DNA of 10,075 nucleotides, taken from IMG/VR virus record IMGVR_UViG_3300014890_000017. One strand, written 5' to 3'. Below are positions 2,796-8,498 of the stretch, in pieces. The DNA is from a virus. Its lineage: Duplodnaviria > Heunggongvirae > Uroviricota > Caudoviricetes. Both the position numbers and the translations under genes were made by a program. The notes under the pieces are model-generated. The model saw only the letters and a list, made by a program, of their open reading frames with translations, did no database searches and was not told the DNA's origin. How positions within the stretch are numbered: the first letter of the stretch is position 1; every line of letters starts with the position of its first letter.

Positions 2796-3677
2796 TTACA
2801 TAGATGTTTCGTTTAATTCTTCCCGACGAACGCTGTAAACGTCGGTGGCTTTTGCCAGCAGCTCGTCATCATCTGAAAGTTTTTGTGCAATGTATTTGTA
2901 AGCCTTATCCAGTTCGGAGACAGTGCTGTAATTCATCGCTGCGCTGGTAAAGGCCATCAGCATTTCTTCTGGATCACGGCTATCCGCTTTACGCGTTTGC
3001 TCATCATGCTTTTTCGCTGGTTTAGCGTTGATCAGACTGTTCATTCCCGCAGCAGTAGTCGTTTGCGGAGTAATGTCTCGCTCAACGCGCGGTGCCGTTT
3101 CCTGTAATTCGTCTGGGGTGTAAACACCGAGAAGTACATCAGGAGCGTGCAGGCGAGCCCATCGTTTCGTGCAAAGATAGGCAAGTTGCTGGCGCGGATC
3201 CTGTTCCCACAATGGAGAGTTACGCACTCCGGCTTGCGCCATACTGATGGTAAGCTCACGGGGTTCTGCTTCTCCTTTAAGAACTGCTGACACAGTTACC
3301 GTCAGATTCGGTGATTTATCTGTTTTGCCGTTAACATTCGACCAGTCACCGCTCCAGCGATAATTCAGGCGTGTCGCTAGCAGGCTGGAAGAGGATACGA
3401 CCGCGTTTACCAACTGTGCTTCGTAGCCTAACGTTCCGTTTACCACATGCGTTTTCTGCGCCACGGCGAAAGGGTTCATTCCCCACTGTGCCGCCTGCAT
3501 GGTCACCGCCAGACAATCGGCAGGTTTGCCTTCAAGATGTTTCGGTACAGTCGCTTTGCTTTGTGACATCAACTCCGCGAAACGCACCAGTTGATTCATG
3601 CCCTCCGGGCTGAAGATTGCCGCAGCAGTACCTACAGTTGCGCCTGGTTGTGATGTGATTGCGATATCATTGCTCAT
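2796..3677 (-). CDS. RecT/Bet-family single-strand annealing recombinase
   Basis: 293 aa; segment AAQWGMNPFAVAQKTHVVNG resembles the lambda Bet / RecT core (Bet has QYGLNPW); lies immediately downstream of, and start-overlaps (ATGA), a PD-(D/E)XK exonuclease, the canonical exo-annealase pair. Confidence 0.75.
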   Translation of the reverse strand: MSNDIAITSQPGATVGTAAAIFSPEGMNQLVRFAELMSQSKATVPKHLEGKPADCLAVTMQAAQWGMNPFAVAQKTHVVNGTLGYEAQLVNAVVSSSSLLATRLNYRWSGDWSNVNGKTDKSPNLTVTVSAVLKGEAEPRELTISMAQAGVRNSPLWEQDPRQQLAYLCTKRWARLHAPDVLLGVYTPDELQETAPRVERDITPQTTTAAGMNSLINAKPAKKHDEQTRKADSRDPEEMLMAFTSAAMNYSTVSELDKAYKYIAQKLSDDDELLAKATDVYSVRREELNETSM

Positions 3678-4495
3678 ACGTACATATCCTGTTTACGTGC
3701 CCAGTCAGGGCGTTTAATAATTTCCACGCCGCCCCATTCATCATTGATGCGGCATTCGTGATAGGTATTCAGATCCCGGCGGAACAGAGCGTGCCCGGCA
3801 TCGACATCCGGCGCATCCAGCTCGAACACGCGTACCGGATACCGACCACAATCAATGCTTTCGCTCACGGCAAGAAAGAAAAAACCATGCGGCTGACCAG
3901 TAACCCTCATTGCGCCTTCGCGGTACATTGCGTCCTGCACGTGGTAGCGGAATTCCTCGATGTGGCGTGCAAAACGGTCCATATCTGCAACCTTTTTCAC
4001 GTCGACGATCACGTTGTGCTCGTTCAGCCATTTGTCTGGACGAATGCGGCACAACTCACCAGTCTCTTCATCGTTCCAGTACATTGATGCTTCGCAGTAA
4101 CCAGGTGCTTCCAGCATCCAGCGTGCCGCCGGGTGAGCCATTGCGCTATCACGCATCAGCTCCAGTTTCCGCCACTGCTCGGCATCAAGTACCGTAATCC
4201 CCATATCCGCTACATCACGAAGAAATGCCTCTTCGTCAGCTTTACCTTGTTTTGTCCGACGATCGAATTTCGGTGAAACGATGAAGCGTTTGTCAAACTC
4301 TCCAGGTTCCAGAAGCAGACAGTGCAGAGCAGTACCCATGTCCAGTGCAGACTTCTTCTCTTCGTCTTCTGGTGCTGCCTGAACCCATTTAAGAAGCGCC
4401 GGATTCTTGGCAACCATGTCCAGTTGCGACTTACTCACGCCGTCCCCGGCGTGGTAGTCTTCGTTGCTGATGTCGAAATAAATTCCCGGTTTCAT
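3674..4495 (-). CDS. PD-(D/E)XK exonuclease (exodeoxyribonuclease VIII / RecE-C-terminal-like)
   Basis: 273 aa; N-terminal YFDISNEDYHAGDGVSKSQL and catalytic-like RIRPDKW ... IVDVKKV motifs fit prophage exonuclease VIII-type PDDEXK nucleases; paired with the annealase. Confidence 0.75.
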   Translation of the reverse strand: MKPGIYFDISNEDYHAGDGVSKSQLDMVAKNPALLKWVQAAPEDEEKKSALDMGTALHCLLLEPGEFDKRFIVSPKFDRRTKQGKADEEAFLRDVADMGITVLDAEQWRKLELMRDSAMAHPAARWMLEAPGYCEASMYWNDEETGELCRIRPDKWLNEHNVIVDVKKVADMDRFARHIEEFRYHVQDAMYREGAMRVTGQPHGFFFLAVSESIDCGRYPVRVFELDAPDVDAGHALFRRDLNTYHECRINDEWGGVEIIKRPDWARKQDMYV

Positions 4496-4946: not shown

Positions 4947-4965
4947 AACTTGTTACCTCGGTCTG

Positions 4966-4980
4966 TTACCGTTGAGGTAA
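4966..4980. promoter_or_regulatory. Operator-like palindrome TTACC-GTTGA-GGTAA (leftward promoter, downstream site)
   Basis: Perfect 5+5+5 inverted repeat read from sequence; an extra TTACC half-site sits at 4953-4957. Confidence 0.6.
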
Positions 4981-5008
4981 TAATTATGCTTATTTGGTTT
5001 GGTGTCAA
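4980..5008 (-). promoter_or_regulatory. Candidate leftward early promoter (PL-like)
   Basis: Minus strand shows consensus -35 TTGACA (plus 5003-5008) followed by an A/T-rich -10 candidate (CATAAT/ATAATT/TAATTA, plus 4981-4988; spacer 14-16 nt, so exact -10 is uncertain). Flanked by operator palindromes on both sides. Confidence 0.45.
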
Positions 5009-5027
5009 TAGATATGAGTTAAAAAAA

Positions 5028-5042
5028 TTACCCGTAAGGTAA
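5028..5042. promoter_or_regulatory. Operator-like palindrome TTACC-CGTAA-GGTAA (leftward promoter, upstream site)
   Basis: Perfect inverted repeat; centre is 62 bp from the centre of the 4966-4980 site. Confidence 0.6.
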
Positions 5043-5052
5043 TCTATCTGGC

Positions 5053-5077
5053 AATAAAAAAGCCGCCATGAGGCGGC
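5053..5077 (-). terminator. Rho-independent terminator downstream of the repressor gene
   Basis: Stem GCCGCC / GGCGGC with loop ATGA (5062-5077); on the minus strand it is followed by TTTTTTATT (plus AATAAAAAA, 5053-5061). Confidence 0.6.
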
Positions 5078-5099
5078 TTACTTGCTGAAAACTATAGTT

Positions 5100-5684
5100 T
5101 TATTGTTTGCTTTTTTCGTTCTGGTTGATGACAAATTCAATGTAACTTTCGATCTTTGCTTTCTCTGTTTCAGGTAACAATGCGTAGCGCGAGCGGTCAT
5201 AGTTGATAGTTGCAGGGTCGTGCGGGTGAATCAGTAGTTCATATCCGTGACGCCCGAATGCAGATGCAACATTCTCCAGGGTGGAAATGGAAACGCTGAC
5301 CTCATTGTTTAACAGGCGGCTGATTGTCACCTGGGCTACGCCGGATGCGCGGTGAAGTTTTCCCTGTGTTGAAAGGTCGCGGCTTTCGCTCATCCAGCGT
5401 TCCAGGTTGTGAGCCGCCAGCTGACCAATGTCGCTTGGTCCGACAGGCTGAAAACCCTCCTGAGAAAGCGAGCGATCGATATCAAGCCAGTTACGTGGTT
5501 TATTGGCGGCAGCTTCAATTTTTCGTGCAACCTGGTCGCCGATAACCTTCTTGCCAAGAGCCCAGCGGTTTACCAGATTTGCCTGAGTTCCAAGTTTTTC
5601 TGCCATCCGCGTCTGAACACCATTGAATTCACGGTCGATCAAGTCGTTGAGATTTTGCCTGCGGACGTCCTGGATACTTTTCAT
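5100..5684 (-). CDS. Prophage repressor candidate with two tandem XRE-type HTH domains (CI-like by position)
   Basis: 194 aa; HTH-like segments NGVQTRMAEKLGTQANLVNRWALGKK and LHRASGVAQVTISRLLNNEVSVSISTLENVASAFG; divergent from a Cro-like gene across an operator-rich intergenic region; no LexA/S24 peptidase-like motif recognised. Confidence 0.7.
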   Translation of the reverse strand: MKSIQDVRRQNLNDLIDREFNGVQTRMAEKLGTQANLVNRWALGKKVIGDQVARKIEAAANKPRNWLDIDRSLSQEGFQPVGPSDIGQLAAHNLERWMSESRDLSTQGKLHRASGVAQVTISRLLNNEVSVSISTLENVASAFGRHGYELLIHPHDPATINYDRSRYALLPETEKAKIESYIEFVINQNEKSKQ

Positions 5685-5739
5685 TTTCTGGAAAATCGCC
5701 TCATATATGAATCAGTAGATGATTCAATTTAAAGCAATA

Positions 5740-5754
5740 TTACCCAACAGGTAA
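5740..5754. promoter_or_regulatory. Operator-like palindrome TTACC-CAACA-GGTAA (divergent region)
   Basis: Perfect inverted repeat in the repressor/cro intergenic region; a degenerate adjacent site gcACC-TCATA-GGTAA lies at 5757-5771. Confidence 0.6.
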
Positions 5755-5784
5755 ATGCACCTCATAGGTAACTATCCTTGATTT

Positions 5785-5813
5785 TTGTTACCTTATGGGT
5801 GAATATTTATTAT
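5785..5813 (+). promoter_or_regulatory. Candidate rightward early promoter (PR-like)
   Basis: -35 TTGTTA (5785-5790), 17-bp spacer, -10 TATTAT (5808-5813); the 5788-5802 operator lies within the spacer. Confidence 0.5.
5788..5802. promoter_or_regulatory. Operator-like palindrome TTACC-TTATG-GGTgA (one mismatch)
   Basis: Near-perfect copy of the TTACC-N5-GGTAA motif overlapping the PR-like promoter; centre 48 bp from the 5740-5754 site. Confidence 0.5.
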
Positions 5814-5838: not shown

Positions 5839-6069
5839 ATGAGCGATAACGGACATTTCGATTTCAAAAAGCACTGGCTTGCACTTACTCCGGATGAGCG
5901 TGAAGCCTTCGCACAGGAAGCCGGAACGACGAGTCACTATATCCAGACTCACTTAACAGGTAAGCGCAAAATGCCAGGTAAAGTATTGATGAATGGGCTT
6001 TTTAAAGCCTGTAAAACAAGACAATGGCTGCGCTCAAAAGCAGAACTGGCATACTTCTTCTACTCATGA
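5839..6069 (+). CDS. Cro-like small HTH regulator (Cro/CI-type, YdaS-like)
   Basis: 76 aa; first gene rightward of the repressor; segment EAFAQEAGTTSHYIQTHLTGKRKMP is HTH-like, resembling Cro/cII-type DNA-binding helices. Confidence 0.65.
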   Translation: MSDNGHFDFKKHWLALTPDEREAFAQEAGTTSHYIQTHLTGKRKMPGKVLMNGLFKACKTRQWLRSKAELAYFFYS

Positions 6070-6090: not shown

Positions 6091-6118
6091 AGACCGCCAC
6101 CCGGCGGTCTTTTCATAT
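6091..6118 (+). terminator. Rho-independent terminator after the cro-like gene (tR1-like position)
   Basis: 8-bp stem AGACCGCC / GGCGGTCT with loop ACCC (6091-6110) followed by TTTCATATCT. Confidence 0.55.
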
Positions 6119-6219
6119 CTATTCGTACCTCAAAGGTAATAAATAACCAAATCTGGTTGATCTTTTTTTTGTGTCAGCACAAAATGACCGTAATCCCAAT
6201 ACTAATAACAGGGCTTACC

Positions 6220-8070: not shown

Positions 8071-8085
8071 TTACCTGGAAGGTAA
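8071..8085. promoter_or_regulatory. Operator-like palindrome TTACC-TGGAA-GGTAA (distal promoter, upstream site)
   Basis: Perfect inverted repeat; centre is 62 bp from the 8133-8147 site, the same spacing as the leftward-promoter pair. Confidence 0.55.
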
Positions 8086-8104
8086 TAAAATATTCTAATC
8101 TCTA

Positions 8105-8133
8105 TTGATTTCATGTCTTATGTGGTTTTTAAT
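8105..8133 (+). promoter_or_regulatory. Candidate promoter for the distal rightward operon
   Basis: -35 TTGATT (8105-8110), 17-bp spacer, -10 TTTAAT (8128-8133); operators lie upstream of the -35 and across the -10/+1. Confidence 0.45.
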
Positions 8134-8147
8134 TACCTGAGGGGTAA
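8133..8147. promoter_or_regulatory. Operator-like palindrome TTACC-TGAGG-GGTAA overlapping the -10/+1 and the SD of the next gene
   Basis: Perfect inverted repeat ending 3 nt before the ATG at 8151; its central GAGGGG also serves as the ribosome-binding site. Confidence 0.55.
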
Positions 8148-8150
8148 ATC

Positions 8151-8498
8151 ATGAGAAAACAGATACAGGCTCTTGGTCGACTCAAAACAGGCCAGATGAA
8201 CAAAACAGAATCTGCGTATTGCCAGCACCTTGAGCTGCGTAAACGTGCAGGGGAAATCGCCTGGTATCGATTCGAGGGTATCAAGCTGCGGTTAGCTAAT
8301 AACACGTTCTATACGCCCGATTTCGCTGTGATGCTCGCCACCGGCGAGATGGAGCTGCACGAAGTGAAAGGGGGATTCTGGACCGATGACGCCAGAGTGA
8401 AAACCAAAGTCGCCGCAGATCAGTATCCGTTCCGAATCATCGGGGTAACGGTTAAACCAAAGAAAGCAGGTGGTGGCTGGAACATCGAAGAGTTCTGA
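8151..8498 (+). CDS. DUF1064 / VRR-NUC-like small PD-(D/E)XK-fold protein
   Basis: 115 aa; LELRKRAGEI ... YTPDFAV ... ELHEVKGG matches the conserved pattern of phage DUF1064/VRR-NUC nuclease-like proteins (D ... E-x-K). Confidence 0.65.
   Translation: MRKQIQALGRLKTGQMNKTESAYCQHLELRKRAGEIAWYRFEGIKLRLANNTFYTPDFAVMLATGEMELHEVKGGFWTDDARVKTKVAADQYPFRIIGVTVKPKKAGGGWNIEEF

What the first reader, a model, noticed from the sequence alone, without database searches (positions are those of the whole stretch)
4953..5802. Recurring 15-bp palindrome TTACC-N5-GGTAA marks the immunity-region operators
Perfect copies occur at 4966-4980, 5028-5042 and 5740-5754 and a one-mismatch copy at 5788-5802, all in intergenic DNA flanking the repressor gene and overlapping candidate -35/-10 elements of divergent early promoters. 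A specific 10-bp-defined palindrome is expected by chance about 0.02 times in 10 kb on both strands, so this density is not random. The layout resembles lambda OL/OR but with a different operator sequence and only two clear sites per side (plus a degenerate one at 5757-5771). The leftward pair is spaced exactly 62 bp centre to centre.
Basis: seen in the sequence. Interest (0 to 1): 0.7.

Follow-up and report, generated by a model that had tools for sequence, protein, structure and literature searches.

The report
Known-type prophage repressor operators
The repeated TTACC-N5-GGTAA palindrome is real and is almost certainly the binding site of this phiV10/epsilon15-type E. coli prophage's repressor, a motif already annotated in phage epsilon15, so the finding is correct but ordinary.

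Summary
Perfect TTACC-N5-GGTAA copies lie at 4966, 5028 and 5740, and a one-mismatch copy at 5788 (0.01 expected by chance).

The window is a phiV10-like Uetakevirus prophage, present in about 10% of complete E. coli genomes. Its 194-aa repressor is a full-length homologue (E 3.5e-42) of the Salmonella phage SPC32H Rep, whose structure is solved (PDB 5D50). Rep acts as a tetramer and is inactivated by a small antirepressor.

The epsilon15 GenBank record already annotates ATTACC-N5-GGTAAT as repressor-binding sites. SPC32H and four other relatives carry the motif at the same positions and spacings. ACC/GGT is invariant in 43 distinct sites, while the central 5 bp drift.

The layout is not lambda-like. 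Two operators 62 bp apart bracket the core promoter at PL and at a third promoter, here called P3. Three sites lie between rep and the cro-like gene.

A matching full prophage has 9 perfect sites, 8 of them intergenic. 108 kb of host DNA has none.

Verdict: operators, and a new member of a known kind. Interest is low. The conserved 62-bp bracketing pairs suggest one tetramer bridging each pair, but that is untested.

The parts
4966..4980 (.). PL-proximal operator (TTACCGTTGAGGTAA). It overlaps the last base of the PL -10 hexamer and the predicted transcription start.
   Evidence: perfect copy, syntenic in 6 phages.
4980..5008 (-). PL, the leftward early promoter: TTGACA (5008-5003), 17-nt spacer, AATTAT (4985-4980).
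   Evidence: 10 of 12 consensus matches; the -35 'ctaTTGAC' sits in the same register in all six phages.
5028..5042 (.). PL-distal operator (TTACCCGTAAGGTAA), 19 nt upstream of the PL -35 and 62 bp from the proximal site.
5060..5079 (-). Intrinsic terminator of the repressor gene.
   Evidence: Annotated in phiV10.
5100..5684 (-). Repressor (Rep), 194 aa: N-terminal HTH DNA-binding domain, a middle HTH_3-fold dimerisation domain, and a C-terminal tetramerisation and Ant-binding domain.
   Evidence: translation. (Pfam HTH_3; YdaS-like HTH below threshold). (PDB 5D50, E 3.5e-42, residues 1-190). (recognition helix N36-L-V-N-R-W41 invariant). Domain names from PMC9986798.
5740..5754 (.). OR3, a perfect site nearest the repressor gene. 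It probably overlaps the repressor's own promoter.
   Evidence: The promoter assignment is inference only.
5757..5771 (.). OR2, a two-mismatch site (GCACC left arm) 17 bp from OR3.
   Evidence: orthologous to perfect sites in epsilon15, SPC32H and the Klebsiella phage. The GCACC variant is conserved in the four phiV10-type phages.
5778..5783 (+). Conserved TTGATT, the likely -35 of PR, the rightward early promoter. The -10 is inferred at 5801-5806 (GAATAT).
   Evidence: TTGATTTTT is invariant in six phages. The scan tool's alternative is TTGTTA 5785-5790 / TATTAT 5808-5813.
5788..5802 (.). OR1, a one-mismatch site (GGTGA right arm) in the -35/-10 spacer of PR, 31 bp from OR2.
5839..6069 (+). 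Cro-like small HTH protein, 76 aa, first gene of the rightward operon.
   Evidence: (phrog_35 transcriptional repressor, E 5.6e-13). (HTH AGTTSHYIQ.HLTG invariant).
6091..6110 (+). Intrinsic terminator after the cro-like gene.
   Evidence: Annotated in phiV10.
6125..6139 (.). One-mismatch site (GTACCTCAAAGGTAA) just after the terminator. A possible weak operator.
   Evidence: Syntenic one-mismatch copies in phiV10, Tyrion and the Klebsiella phage. Function unknown.
8071..8085 (.). P3-distal operator (TTACCTGGAAGGTAA), 19 nt upstream of the P3 -35.
   Evidence: The orthologous epsilon15 site is annotated as repressor-binding.
8105..8133 (+). P3, a rightward promoter after the replication genes: TTGATT (8105-8110), 17-nt spacer, TTTAAT (8128-8133). 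Same register as PL.
   Evidence: read by eye. The scan tool did not call it because the -10 lacks A at position 2.
8133..8147 (.). P3-proximal operator (TTACCTGAGGGGTAA), 62 bp from the distal site. It contains the Shine-Dalgarno sequence of the DUF1064/resolvase gene that starts at 8151.

Best explanation
The TTACC-N5-GGTAA palindromes (extended form ATTACC-N5-GGTAAT) are the operators of the prophage maintenance repressor encoded at 5100-5684. That protein is a member of the Rep family of epsilon15/SPC32H-type podophages (genus Uetakevirus).

In the lysogen, pairs of Rep N-terminal helix-turn-helix domains are inferred to bind each 15-bp palindrome and shut off at least three sigma-70 promoters in this window:
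- PL, leftward, driving the recombination genes. It is bracketed by operators at 5028 (upstream of the -35) and 4966 (on the -10 edge and the start site).
- PR, rightward, driving the cro-like and replication genes. Its operator at 5788 lies in the -35/-10 spacer, with 5757 and 5740 upstream.
- P3, rightward, after the replication genes. It is bracketed by 8071 and 8133 in exactly the PL geometry.

Rep is a tetramer with two DNA-binding pairs. The 62-bp spacing, about six helical turns, is conserved across the genus. I therefore infer that one tetramer bridges the two operators of a pair and encloses the core promoter. This step is inferred, not shown.

Induction would not be by RecA-mediated cleavage. 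It would be by the small LexA-controlled antirepressor Ant, encoded outside the window, which takes the Rep tetramer apart.
For: Shown here:
- Five perfect copies in 10 kb against 0.01 expected.
- A matching complete prophage has 9 perfect copies in 39.7 kb (0.04 expected). Eight are intergenic although 92.5% of that 48-kb stretch (prophage plus host flanks) is coding (binomial P about 8e-9). 108 kb of host chromosome has none.
- Rep aligns over residues 1-190 with SPC32H Rep, PDB 5D50 (E 3.5e-42).
- The epsilon15 GenBank record annotates four 'protein_bind: repressor' sites, and all read ATTACC-N5-GGTAA(T).
- SPC32H, epsilon15, Tyrion, BUCT554, Klebsiella BUCT711 and phiV10 carry the motif at syntenic positions. 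The PL pair is 62 bp apart (63 in one phage), the P3 pair 62 bp in all, OR3-OR2 17 bp, and OR2-OR1 30-31 bp.
- ACC and GGT are invariant in 43 distinct sites. The central five bases are only 39-76% identical between orthologous sites.
- The Rep recognition helix NLVNRW is invariant although the proteins fall to 43% identity.
- PL is a 10/12 consensus promoter whose -10 ends on the first base of the proximal operator. The -35 sits in the same register between the operators at PL and P3 in all six phages.

From the literature: Rep binds palindromic DNA as a tetramer, with the DNA-binding pairs formed across dimers, and Ant breaks the tetramer (PMC9638917). The domain architecture is DBD-MDD-tetramerisation domain (PMC9986798).

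The Ant homologue in phiV10 (p24) matches SPC32H Ant at E 2.9e-46 and has a LexA box (CTGTATAAATACACAG) upstream.
Against: - No binding assay exists for this phage's Rep on these sites. The assignment rests on homology and conservation.
- The primary SPC32H and epsilon15 papers were not available in the library. I could not confirm which operators were footprinted or what basis the epsilon15 annotation has.
- The cro-like protein's HTH is equally invariant, so conservation alone cannot say which protein reads the sites.
- The P3 promoter was not called by the consensus scan.
- The tetramer-bridging step is inference. Part of the 62-bp constancy follows from promoter geometry: a 17-nt spacer plus a fixed overlap of the operator with the -10.
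Confidence: 0.88

Rival explanations
1. The sites are read mainly or also by the 76-aa cro-like protein (5839-6069). As with lambda CI and Cro, the two proteins would share operators with different affinity orders.
For: - The cro-like protein belongs to a phage 'transcriptional repressor' family (phrog_35).
- Its HTH is invariant across the genus, like the operator arms.
- The strongest (perfect) site in the rep/cro intergenic region is OR3, next to the repressor gene. That is where a Cro-type protein would be expected to act first.
Against: - Sites at PL, at P3 and upstream of the late and accessory operons make sense as targets of the lysogenic repressor.
- The epsilon15 record assigns them to the repressor.
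- No data of any kind exist on the cro-like protein's DNA specificity.
- Exclusive binding by the cro-like protein would leave Rep without operators.
Confidence: 0.3
2. Each operator is bound independently by its own Rep oligomer, with no bridging or looping. The 62-bp spacing is then a by-product of placing one site on the start point and one on the UP-element region of a standard promoter.
For: - The -35/-10 geometry already fixes 28 of the 47 intervening bases.
- One pair (Klebsiella PL) is 63 bp apart, not 62.
Against: - The remaining 19 nt between the distal operator and the -35 show no insertions or deletions in 11 of 12 promoter copies, although the sequence itself diverges strongly.
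- Rep is a tetramer with two DNA-binding pairs and a p53-like tetramerisation domain, a fold that in pLS20 Rco mediates looping.
- 62 bp is about 5.9 helical turns, which puts the two sites on nearly the same face of the helix.
Confidence: 0.4
3. The palindromes are chance repeats or serve a function unrelated to transcription, such as host-factor sites or replication, packaging or recombination signals.
For: None found. One perfect copy lies inside the annotated terminase small-subunit ORF.
Against: - 0.01 copies expected against 5 observed.
- Strict intergenic placement at promoters.
- Arms conserved while the centre varies, across seven phages.
- The 'coding' copy lies downstream of a terminator hairpin inside a probably mis-called N-terminus.
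Confidence: 0.01

Closest known systems
Rep/Ant lysis-lysogeny switch of Salmonella podophage SPC32H (Kim & Ryu 2013, J Virol; Kim et al. 2016, PNAS; PDB 5D50, 5D4Z)
   Same: - The repressor is homologous over its full length (E 3.5e-42).
- SPC32H carries the same operator motif at the same positions and spacings.
- The same small Ant is present in phiV10-type genomes (E 2.9e-46), with a LexA box upstream.
- Gene order is the same: rep, cro-like gene, replication genes.
   Different: - Rep is only about 43% identical, whereas Ant is about 85% identical by my count from the alignment.
- The OR2 and OR1 mismatch patterns differ: GCACC/GGTGA here, against a perfect OR2 and a GGTGA OR1 in SPC32H.
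- SPC32H and epsilon15 have a third site 76 bp downstream of PL that is absent here.
- The central 5 bp are A/T-rich in the Salmonella phages and mixed here.
Repressor-binding sites annotated in the phage epsilon15 genome record (AY150271.2)
   Same: The motif is identical, ATTACC-N5-GGTAAT. The annotated sites include the PL pair (62 bp apart) and the distal P3 site.
   Different: The epsilon15 record annotates only four sites. It omits the three sites between rep and the cro-like gene and the proximal P3 site, all of which are present in its sequence. The phiV10 record annotates none.
Bacteriophage lambda CI/Cro with OL and OR
   Same: Divergent repressor and cro-like genes are separated by a region with three palindromic sites, and there are further operators at the leftward early promoter. 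The operators overlap core promoter elements.
   Different: - The repressor has no S24/LexA-like autocleavage domain and is controlled by an antirepressor.
- The left and P3 operators are pairs 62 bp apart that bracket the promoter, not tandem sites about 20-24 bp apart.
- A third regulated promoter lies after the replication genes.
- The best site at OR is the one nearest the repressor gene.
Rco repressor of Bacillus plasmid pLS20 (DBD plus p53-like tetramerisation domain, DNA looping)
   Same: An N-terminal HTH DNA-binding domain is combined with a C-terminal tetramerisation domain of the same fold. The repressor is countered by an antirepressor.
   Different: Rco loops DNA over longer distances using several tetramers. 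Looping by Rep is only inferred here. Rep has an extra middle dimerisation domain.

Membership tests
Uetakevirus (epsilon15/SPC32H-type) Rep repressor-operator system | Repressor homologous to SPC32H Rep over all three domains (DBD, MDD, C-terminal tetramerisation/Ant-binding domain) | tested here: met
   E 3.5e-42, query residues 1-190 against chain residues 2-197; invariant residues in every domain, including Y162, D163, Y167, L170, P171, E174, K175 at the C-terminus.
Uetakevirus (epsilon15/SPC32H-type) Rep repressor-operator system | Operators of the form ATTACC-N5-GGTAAT at the early promoters | tested here: met
   same motif, syntenic positions, same spacings as in epsilon15 and SPC32H.
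Uetakevirus (epsilon15/SPC32H-type) Rep repressor-operator system | Small LexA-controlled antirepressor Ant in the same genome | tested here: inconclusive
   The gene lies outside the 10-kb window. In phiV10 (97.6% identical over the immunity region), p24 matches SPC32H Ant at E 2.9e-46 and a LexA box lies upstream. The matching prophage L007 has an 85-aa ORF at the same position, which I did not compare by sequence.
Uetakevirus (epsilon15/SPC32H-type) Rep repressor-operator system | Rep physically binds the palindromes as a tetramer | not testable with these tools
   Known for SPC32H only through secondary sources. Needs EMSA or footprinting and SEC-MALS with this protein.
Uetakevirus (epsilon15/SPC32H-type) Rep repressor-operator system | Genome is a Uetakevirus with the conserved int / rec / rep / cro-like / replication gene order | tested here: met
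Lambda-type CI/Cro switch | Repressor with a C-terminal S24 (LexA-like) autocleavage and dimerisation domain | tested here: not met
   only HTH families are hit; the C-terminal part matches the Rep MDD and tetramerisation domain.
Lambda-type CI/Cro switch | Three operators between divergent repressor and cro genes | tested here: met
   sites at 5740, 5757 and 5788 (0, 2 and 1 mismatches).
Lambda-type CI/Cro switch | Tandem, closely spaced operators at the leftward promoter that are bound cooperatively by dimers | tested here: not met
   two sites 62 bp apart with the whole core promoter between them.

The most novel reading that the evidence does not exclude
The operator pairs are conserved across the genus at exactly 62 bp and enclose the -35 and -10 of PL and P3. 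They could be the docking sites of a single Rep tetramer whose two trans-formed DNA-binding pairs clamp the promoter in a micro-loop of about six helical turns. That repression geometry differs from lambda-type tandem cooperativity and, as far as I could check, has not been described for this family.

A corollary follows from the invariance of the half-site and of the recognition helix across Reps only 43% identical, from phages of E. coli, Salmonella, Klebsiella and Enterobacter. All these phages may share one operator specificity, and so may cross-repress one another. Individuality would then reside in the Rep C-terminal domain and its pairing with Ant.
Probability: 0.3. Interest if true: 0.45.

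Novelty: new member of a known kind. Interest (0 to 1): 0.2.

Why it matters
This immunity region is present in about 10% of complete E. coli genomes (562 of 5426). An operator map is therefore useful for annotating phiV10-type prophages and for predicting their induction and cross-immunity. In the sources I could reach, no operators are annotated or defined for these prophages.

It does not change understanding, because the repressor family, its antirepressor control and the operator motif are already known from SPC32H and epsilon15.

The mildly interesting residue has three parts:
- the strictly conserved 62-bp promoter-bracketing geometry;
- the third repressed promoter after the replication genes;
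- one operator specificity apparently shared across phages of four host genera.

Tried and rejected
- **Primary papers.** I tried to read the epsilon15 genome paper, the SPC32H J Virol 2013 paper and the PNAS 2016 paper by PubMed id, PMC id and DOI. None is held. Statements about Rep biochemistry therefore rest on secondary sources and on my memory of the abstracts.
- **Literature searches for a defined operator.** The phiV10/operator search led to the vB_EcoP_ZX5 paper, which predicts promoters but defines no operator. The epsilon15/operator, TTACC/GGTAA, SPC32H/operator and Uetakevirus/repressor searches gave nothing further.
- **The cro-like protein.** It has no Pfam hit and no relative of solved structure. 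Only phrog_35 matched.
- **Consensus promoter scan.** It found PL. It did not call P3 or a promoter for the repressor gene, so those assignments are by eye and by conservation.
- **Terminator-like call at 4950-4983.** I rejected it as a side effect of the repeated half-sites.
- **RNA hairpin reading.** I considered that the palindromes might act as RNA hairpins and rejected it. The stems are only 5 bp, and the arms are conserved as sequence, with no compensatory changes.
- **Repressor-gene promoter.** I could not assign it with confidence. My best guess is TTTACC (5755-5750), 17 nt, TTAAAT (5732-5727) on the minus strand, overlapping OR3. That is only 4/6 + 4/6 consensus matches.

Full report
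**Observation**

The palindrome TTACC-N5-GGTAA occurs perfectly at 4966-4980, 5028-5042 and 5740-5754. Dinucleotide-preserving shuffles give 0.01 perfect copies per window, and no shuffle reached five.

Two perfect ones lie at 8071-8085 and 8133-8147, again exactly 62 bp apart. A one-mismatch copy lies at 6125-6139, just after the terminator that follows the cro-like gene.

**Where the window comes from**

The region is 97.6% identical to Escherichia phage phiV10 and its relatives (genus Uetakevirus, the epsilon15-like podophages). It is 100% identical to a prophage integrated next to guaA in E. coli JNE25-001. This immunity region is present in 562 of 5426 complete E. coli genomes.

Gene order in the window matches phiV10:
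- integrase;
- leftward accessory and recombination genes;
- the repressor (5100-5684, minus strand);
- the cro-like gene (5839-6069);
- DnaT-like and P-like replication genes;
- a DUF1064/resolvase gene (8151-8498).

**The repressor**

The 194-aa protein has an N-terminal Cro/YdaS-like HTH and a second HTH_3 fold. It aligns over residues 1-190 with the repressor Rep of Salmonella phage SPC32H, PDB 5D50 (E 3.5e-42).

Secondary sources describe Rep as follows:
- It binds palindromic DNA as a tetramer.
- The DNA-binding pairs are formed between different dimers.
- It is inactivated by a tetrameric antirepressor, Ant, which breaks the tetramer (PMC9638917).
- Its architecture is a DNA-binding domain, a middle dimerisation domain and a p53-like tetramerisation/Ant-binding domain (PMC9986798).

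The second source also notes that the structural mechanism of repression 'has not been extensively characterized'. The primary papers were not available.

**The motif is already known in this genus**

The epsilon15 GenBank record carries four 'protein_bind: repressor, lysogeny' features. All of them read ATTACC-N5-GGTAA(T).

I scanned the immunity regions of phiV10, Tyrion, BUCT554, Klebsiella phage BUCT711, epsilon15 and SPC32H. The same motif appears at syntenic positions:
- a pair at the leftward promoter, 62 bp apart (63 in the Klebsiella phage);
- three sites between rep and the cro-like gene, with OR3-OR2 17 bp apart and OR2-OR1 30-31 bp apart;
- a pair 62 bp apart after the replication genes, in every genome.

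Among 43 distinct sites, ACC and GGT are invariant and the outer TT/AA are about 90% conserved. The central five bases are only 39-76% identical between orthologous sites. This is the footprint expected of a protein that reads the arms.

The N-terminal recognition helix of Rep (N36-L-V-N-R-W41) is invariant although the proteins drop to 43% identity. This fits the invariant half-site.

The 'degenerate' site at 5757-5771 is orthologous to perfect sites in epsilon15, SPC32H and the Klebsiella phage. Its GCACC variant is itself conserved in the four phiV10-type phages. It is therefore a real third site, probably of tuned, lower affinity.

**Promoter geometry**

*PL.* The leftward promoter is TTGACA-17-AATTAT on the minus strand (5008 to 4980; 10 of 12 matches). 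The last base of the -10 is the first base of the proximal operator. The distal operator ends 19 nt upstream of the -35.

*P3.* The region at 8071-8147 has the same construction in the same register: TTGATT at 8105-8110 and TTTAAT at 8128-8133. Both cassettes line up column for column in all six phages. The scan tool did not call P3 because its -10 lacks A at position 2. The proximal P3 operator also contains the Shine-Dalgarno sequence of the downstream gene.

*PR.* At the rightward promoter the invariant TTGATTTTT (5778-5783) precedes the operator at 5788-5802, which fills the -35/-10 spacer. The tool's alternative is TTGTTA/TATTAT at 5785-5813.

*Repressor promoter.* I could not assign it with confidence.

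In the complete matching prophage (39.7 kb) there are nine perfect copies against 0.04 expected. Eight are intergenic, although 92.5% of the fetched 48-kb stretch (prophage plus short host flanks) is coding (P about 8e-9).

The ninth lies in the annotated N-terminus of the small terminase subunit. It sits downstream of a terminator hairpin, so that start codon is probably mis-called.

In 108 kb of the same strain's chromosome there are no perfect copies. The motif is therefore not a general feature of coding or host DNA.

**Mechanism**

*Shown.* The sites are non-random, promoter-associated and conserved in their arms. They are identical to the sites annotated for a homologous repressor.

*Inferred by homology.* Rep N-terminal domain pairs bind each palindrome. 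Induction is by the LexA-controlled Ant. The phiV10 p24 protein matches SPC32H Ant at E 2.9e-46 and has a LexA box upstream.

*Inferred from geometry only.* One tetramer bridges each 62-bp pair (about 5.9 helical turns) and encloses the promoter.

*Open rivals.* One is independent binding at each site, with the spacing dictated by promoter geometry. The other is shared use of the sites by the cro-like protein, whose HTH is equally invariant and which belongs to a phage repressor family.

**Comparison with known systems**

This is a member of the SPC32H/epsilon15 Rep-operator system. The repressor homology, operator motif, synteny and genus criteria are met. Ant is outside the window, and binding is untestable here.

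It only loosely resembles the lambda system. It has three sites between divergent genes, but it lacks an S24 cleavage domain and tandem left operators.

**Verdict**

The thing is a further instance of a known system, so interest is low.

What this analysis adds:
- the third operator pair;
- the three-site structure of the right operator region;
- the genus-wide 62-bp bracketing geometry;
- the wider nine-site distribution across the prophage.

Noticed in passing
window 8120-8127; L007 9991, 10370, 11523, 30403, 36731 (all on one strand): The 8-mer ATGTGGTT lies just upstream of the P3 -10. It recurs five times on the same strand of the full prophage, against roughly 0.7 expected per strand. 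Four of the five copies lie 32-44 nt downstream of a TTACC-N5-GGTAA site, upstream of the DUF1064 gene, the head-gene operon, the tail-fibre gene and an accessory operon. It looks like a second shared promoter element of unknown reader.
   Followed up: partly
L002 (phiV10) 20484-20524: A 41-bp perfect palindrome, GGAGTGCTTATAT-TTACCTTTGCGGTAA-ATATAAGCACTCC, is centred on an operator motif. It lies between the small ant gene (p24) and the Bro-domain 'anti-immunity' gene p23. It could be an operator embedded in a hairpin or terminator.
   Followed up: no
L002 (phiV10) 20824-20839 and 20543-20800: A LexA box, CTGTATAAATACACAG, lies just upstream of p24. That protein is about 85% identical to SPC32H Ant by my count from the alignment (E 2.9e-46), whereas the cognate repressors are only about 43% identical. 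The antirepressor is far more conserved than the repressor it targets.
   Followed up: partly
L002 (phiV10) 41-123; L007 33708-33786: The annotated start of the small terminase subunit places three features inside the ORF: a terminator hairpin (ccgccaactatggcgg + T-run) and two adjacent operator-like sites 18 bp apart. The real start is probably the ATG at phiV10 121. That would put the sites directly upstream of the late packaging genes.
   Followed up: partly
window 8071-8498, compared with L003, L004, L005, L006: The P3 promoter-operator cassette is conserved base-register for base-register, but the first gene behind it differs. It is a DUF1064/resolvase gene in the window, phiV10, BUCT554 and the Klebsiella phage. 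SPC32H has a gene of the same length at that position, annotated as a restriction endonuclease, which I did not compare. Epsilon15 and Tyrion have a RuvC-like resolvase there. This is a non-orthologous replacement behind a fixed regulatory module.
   Followed up: partly
window 6125-6139: A one-mismatch site, GTACCTCAAAGGTAA, lies 15 nt after the terminator of the cro-like gene. It is conserved, with one mismatch, in phiV10, Tyrion and the Klebsiella phage but not in epsilon15. It might regulate read-through or a weak promoter for the replication genes.
   Followed up: partly
window 2796-4495, compared with phiV10 29722-31482: The window and the JNE25-001 prophage encode separate PD-(D/E)XK exonuclease and RecT genes. 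The phiV10 record annotates a single fused 'recET' ORF at that position.
   Followed up: no
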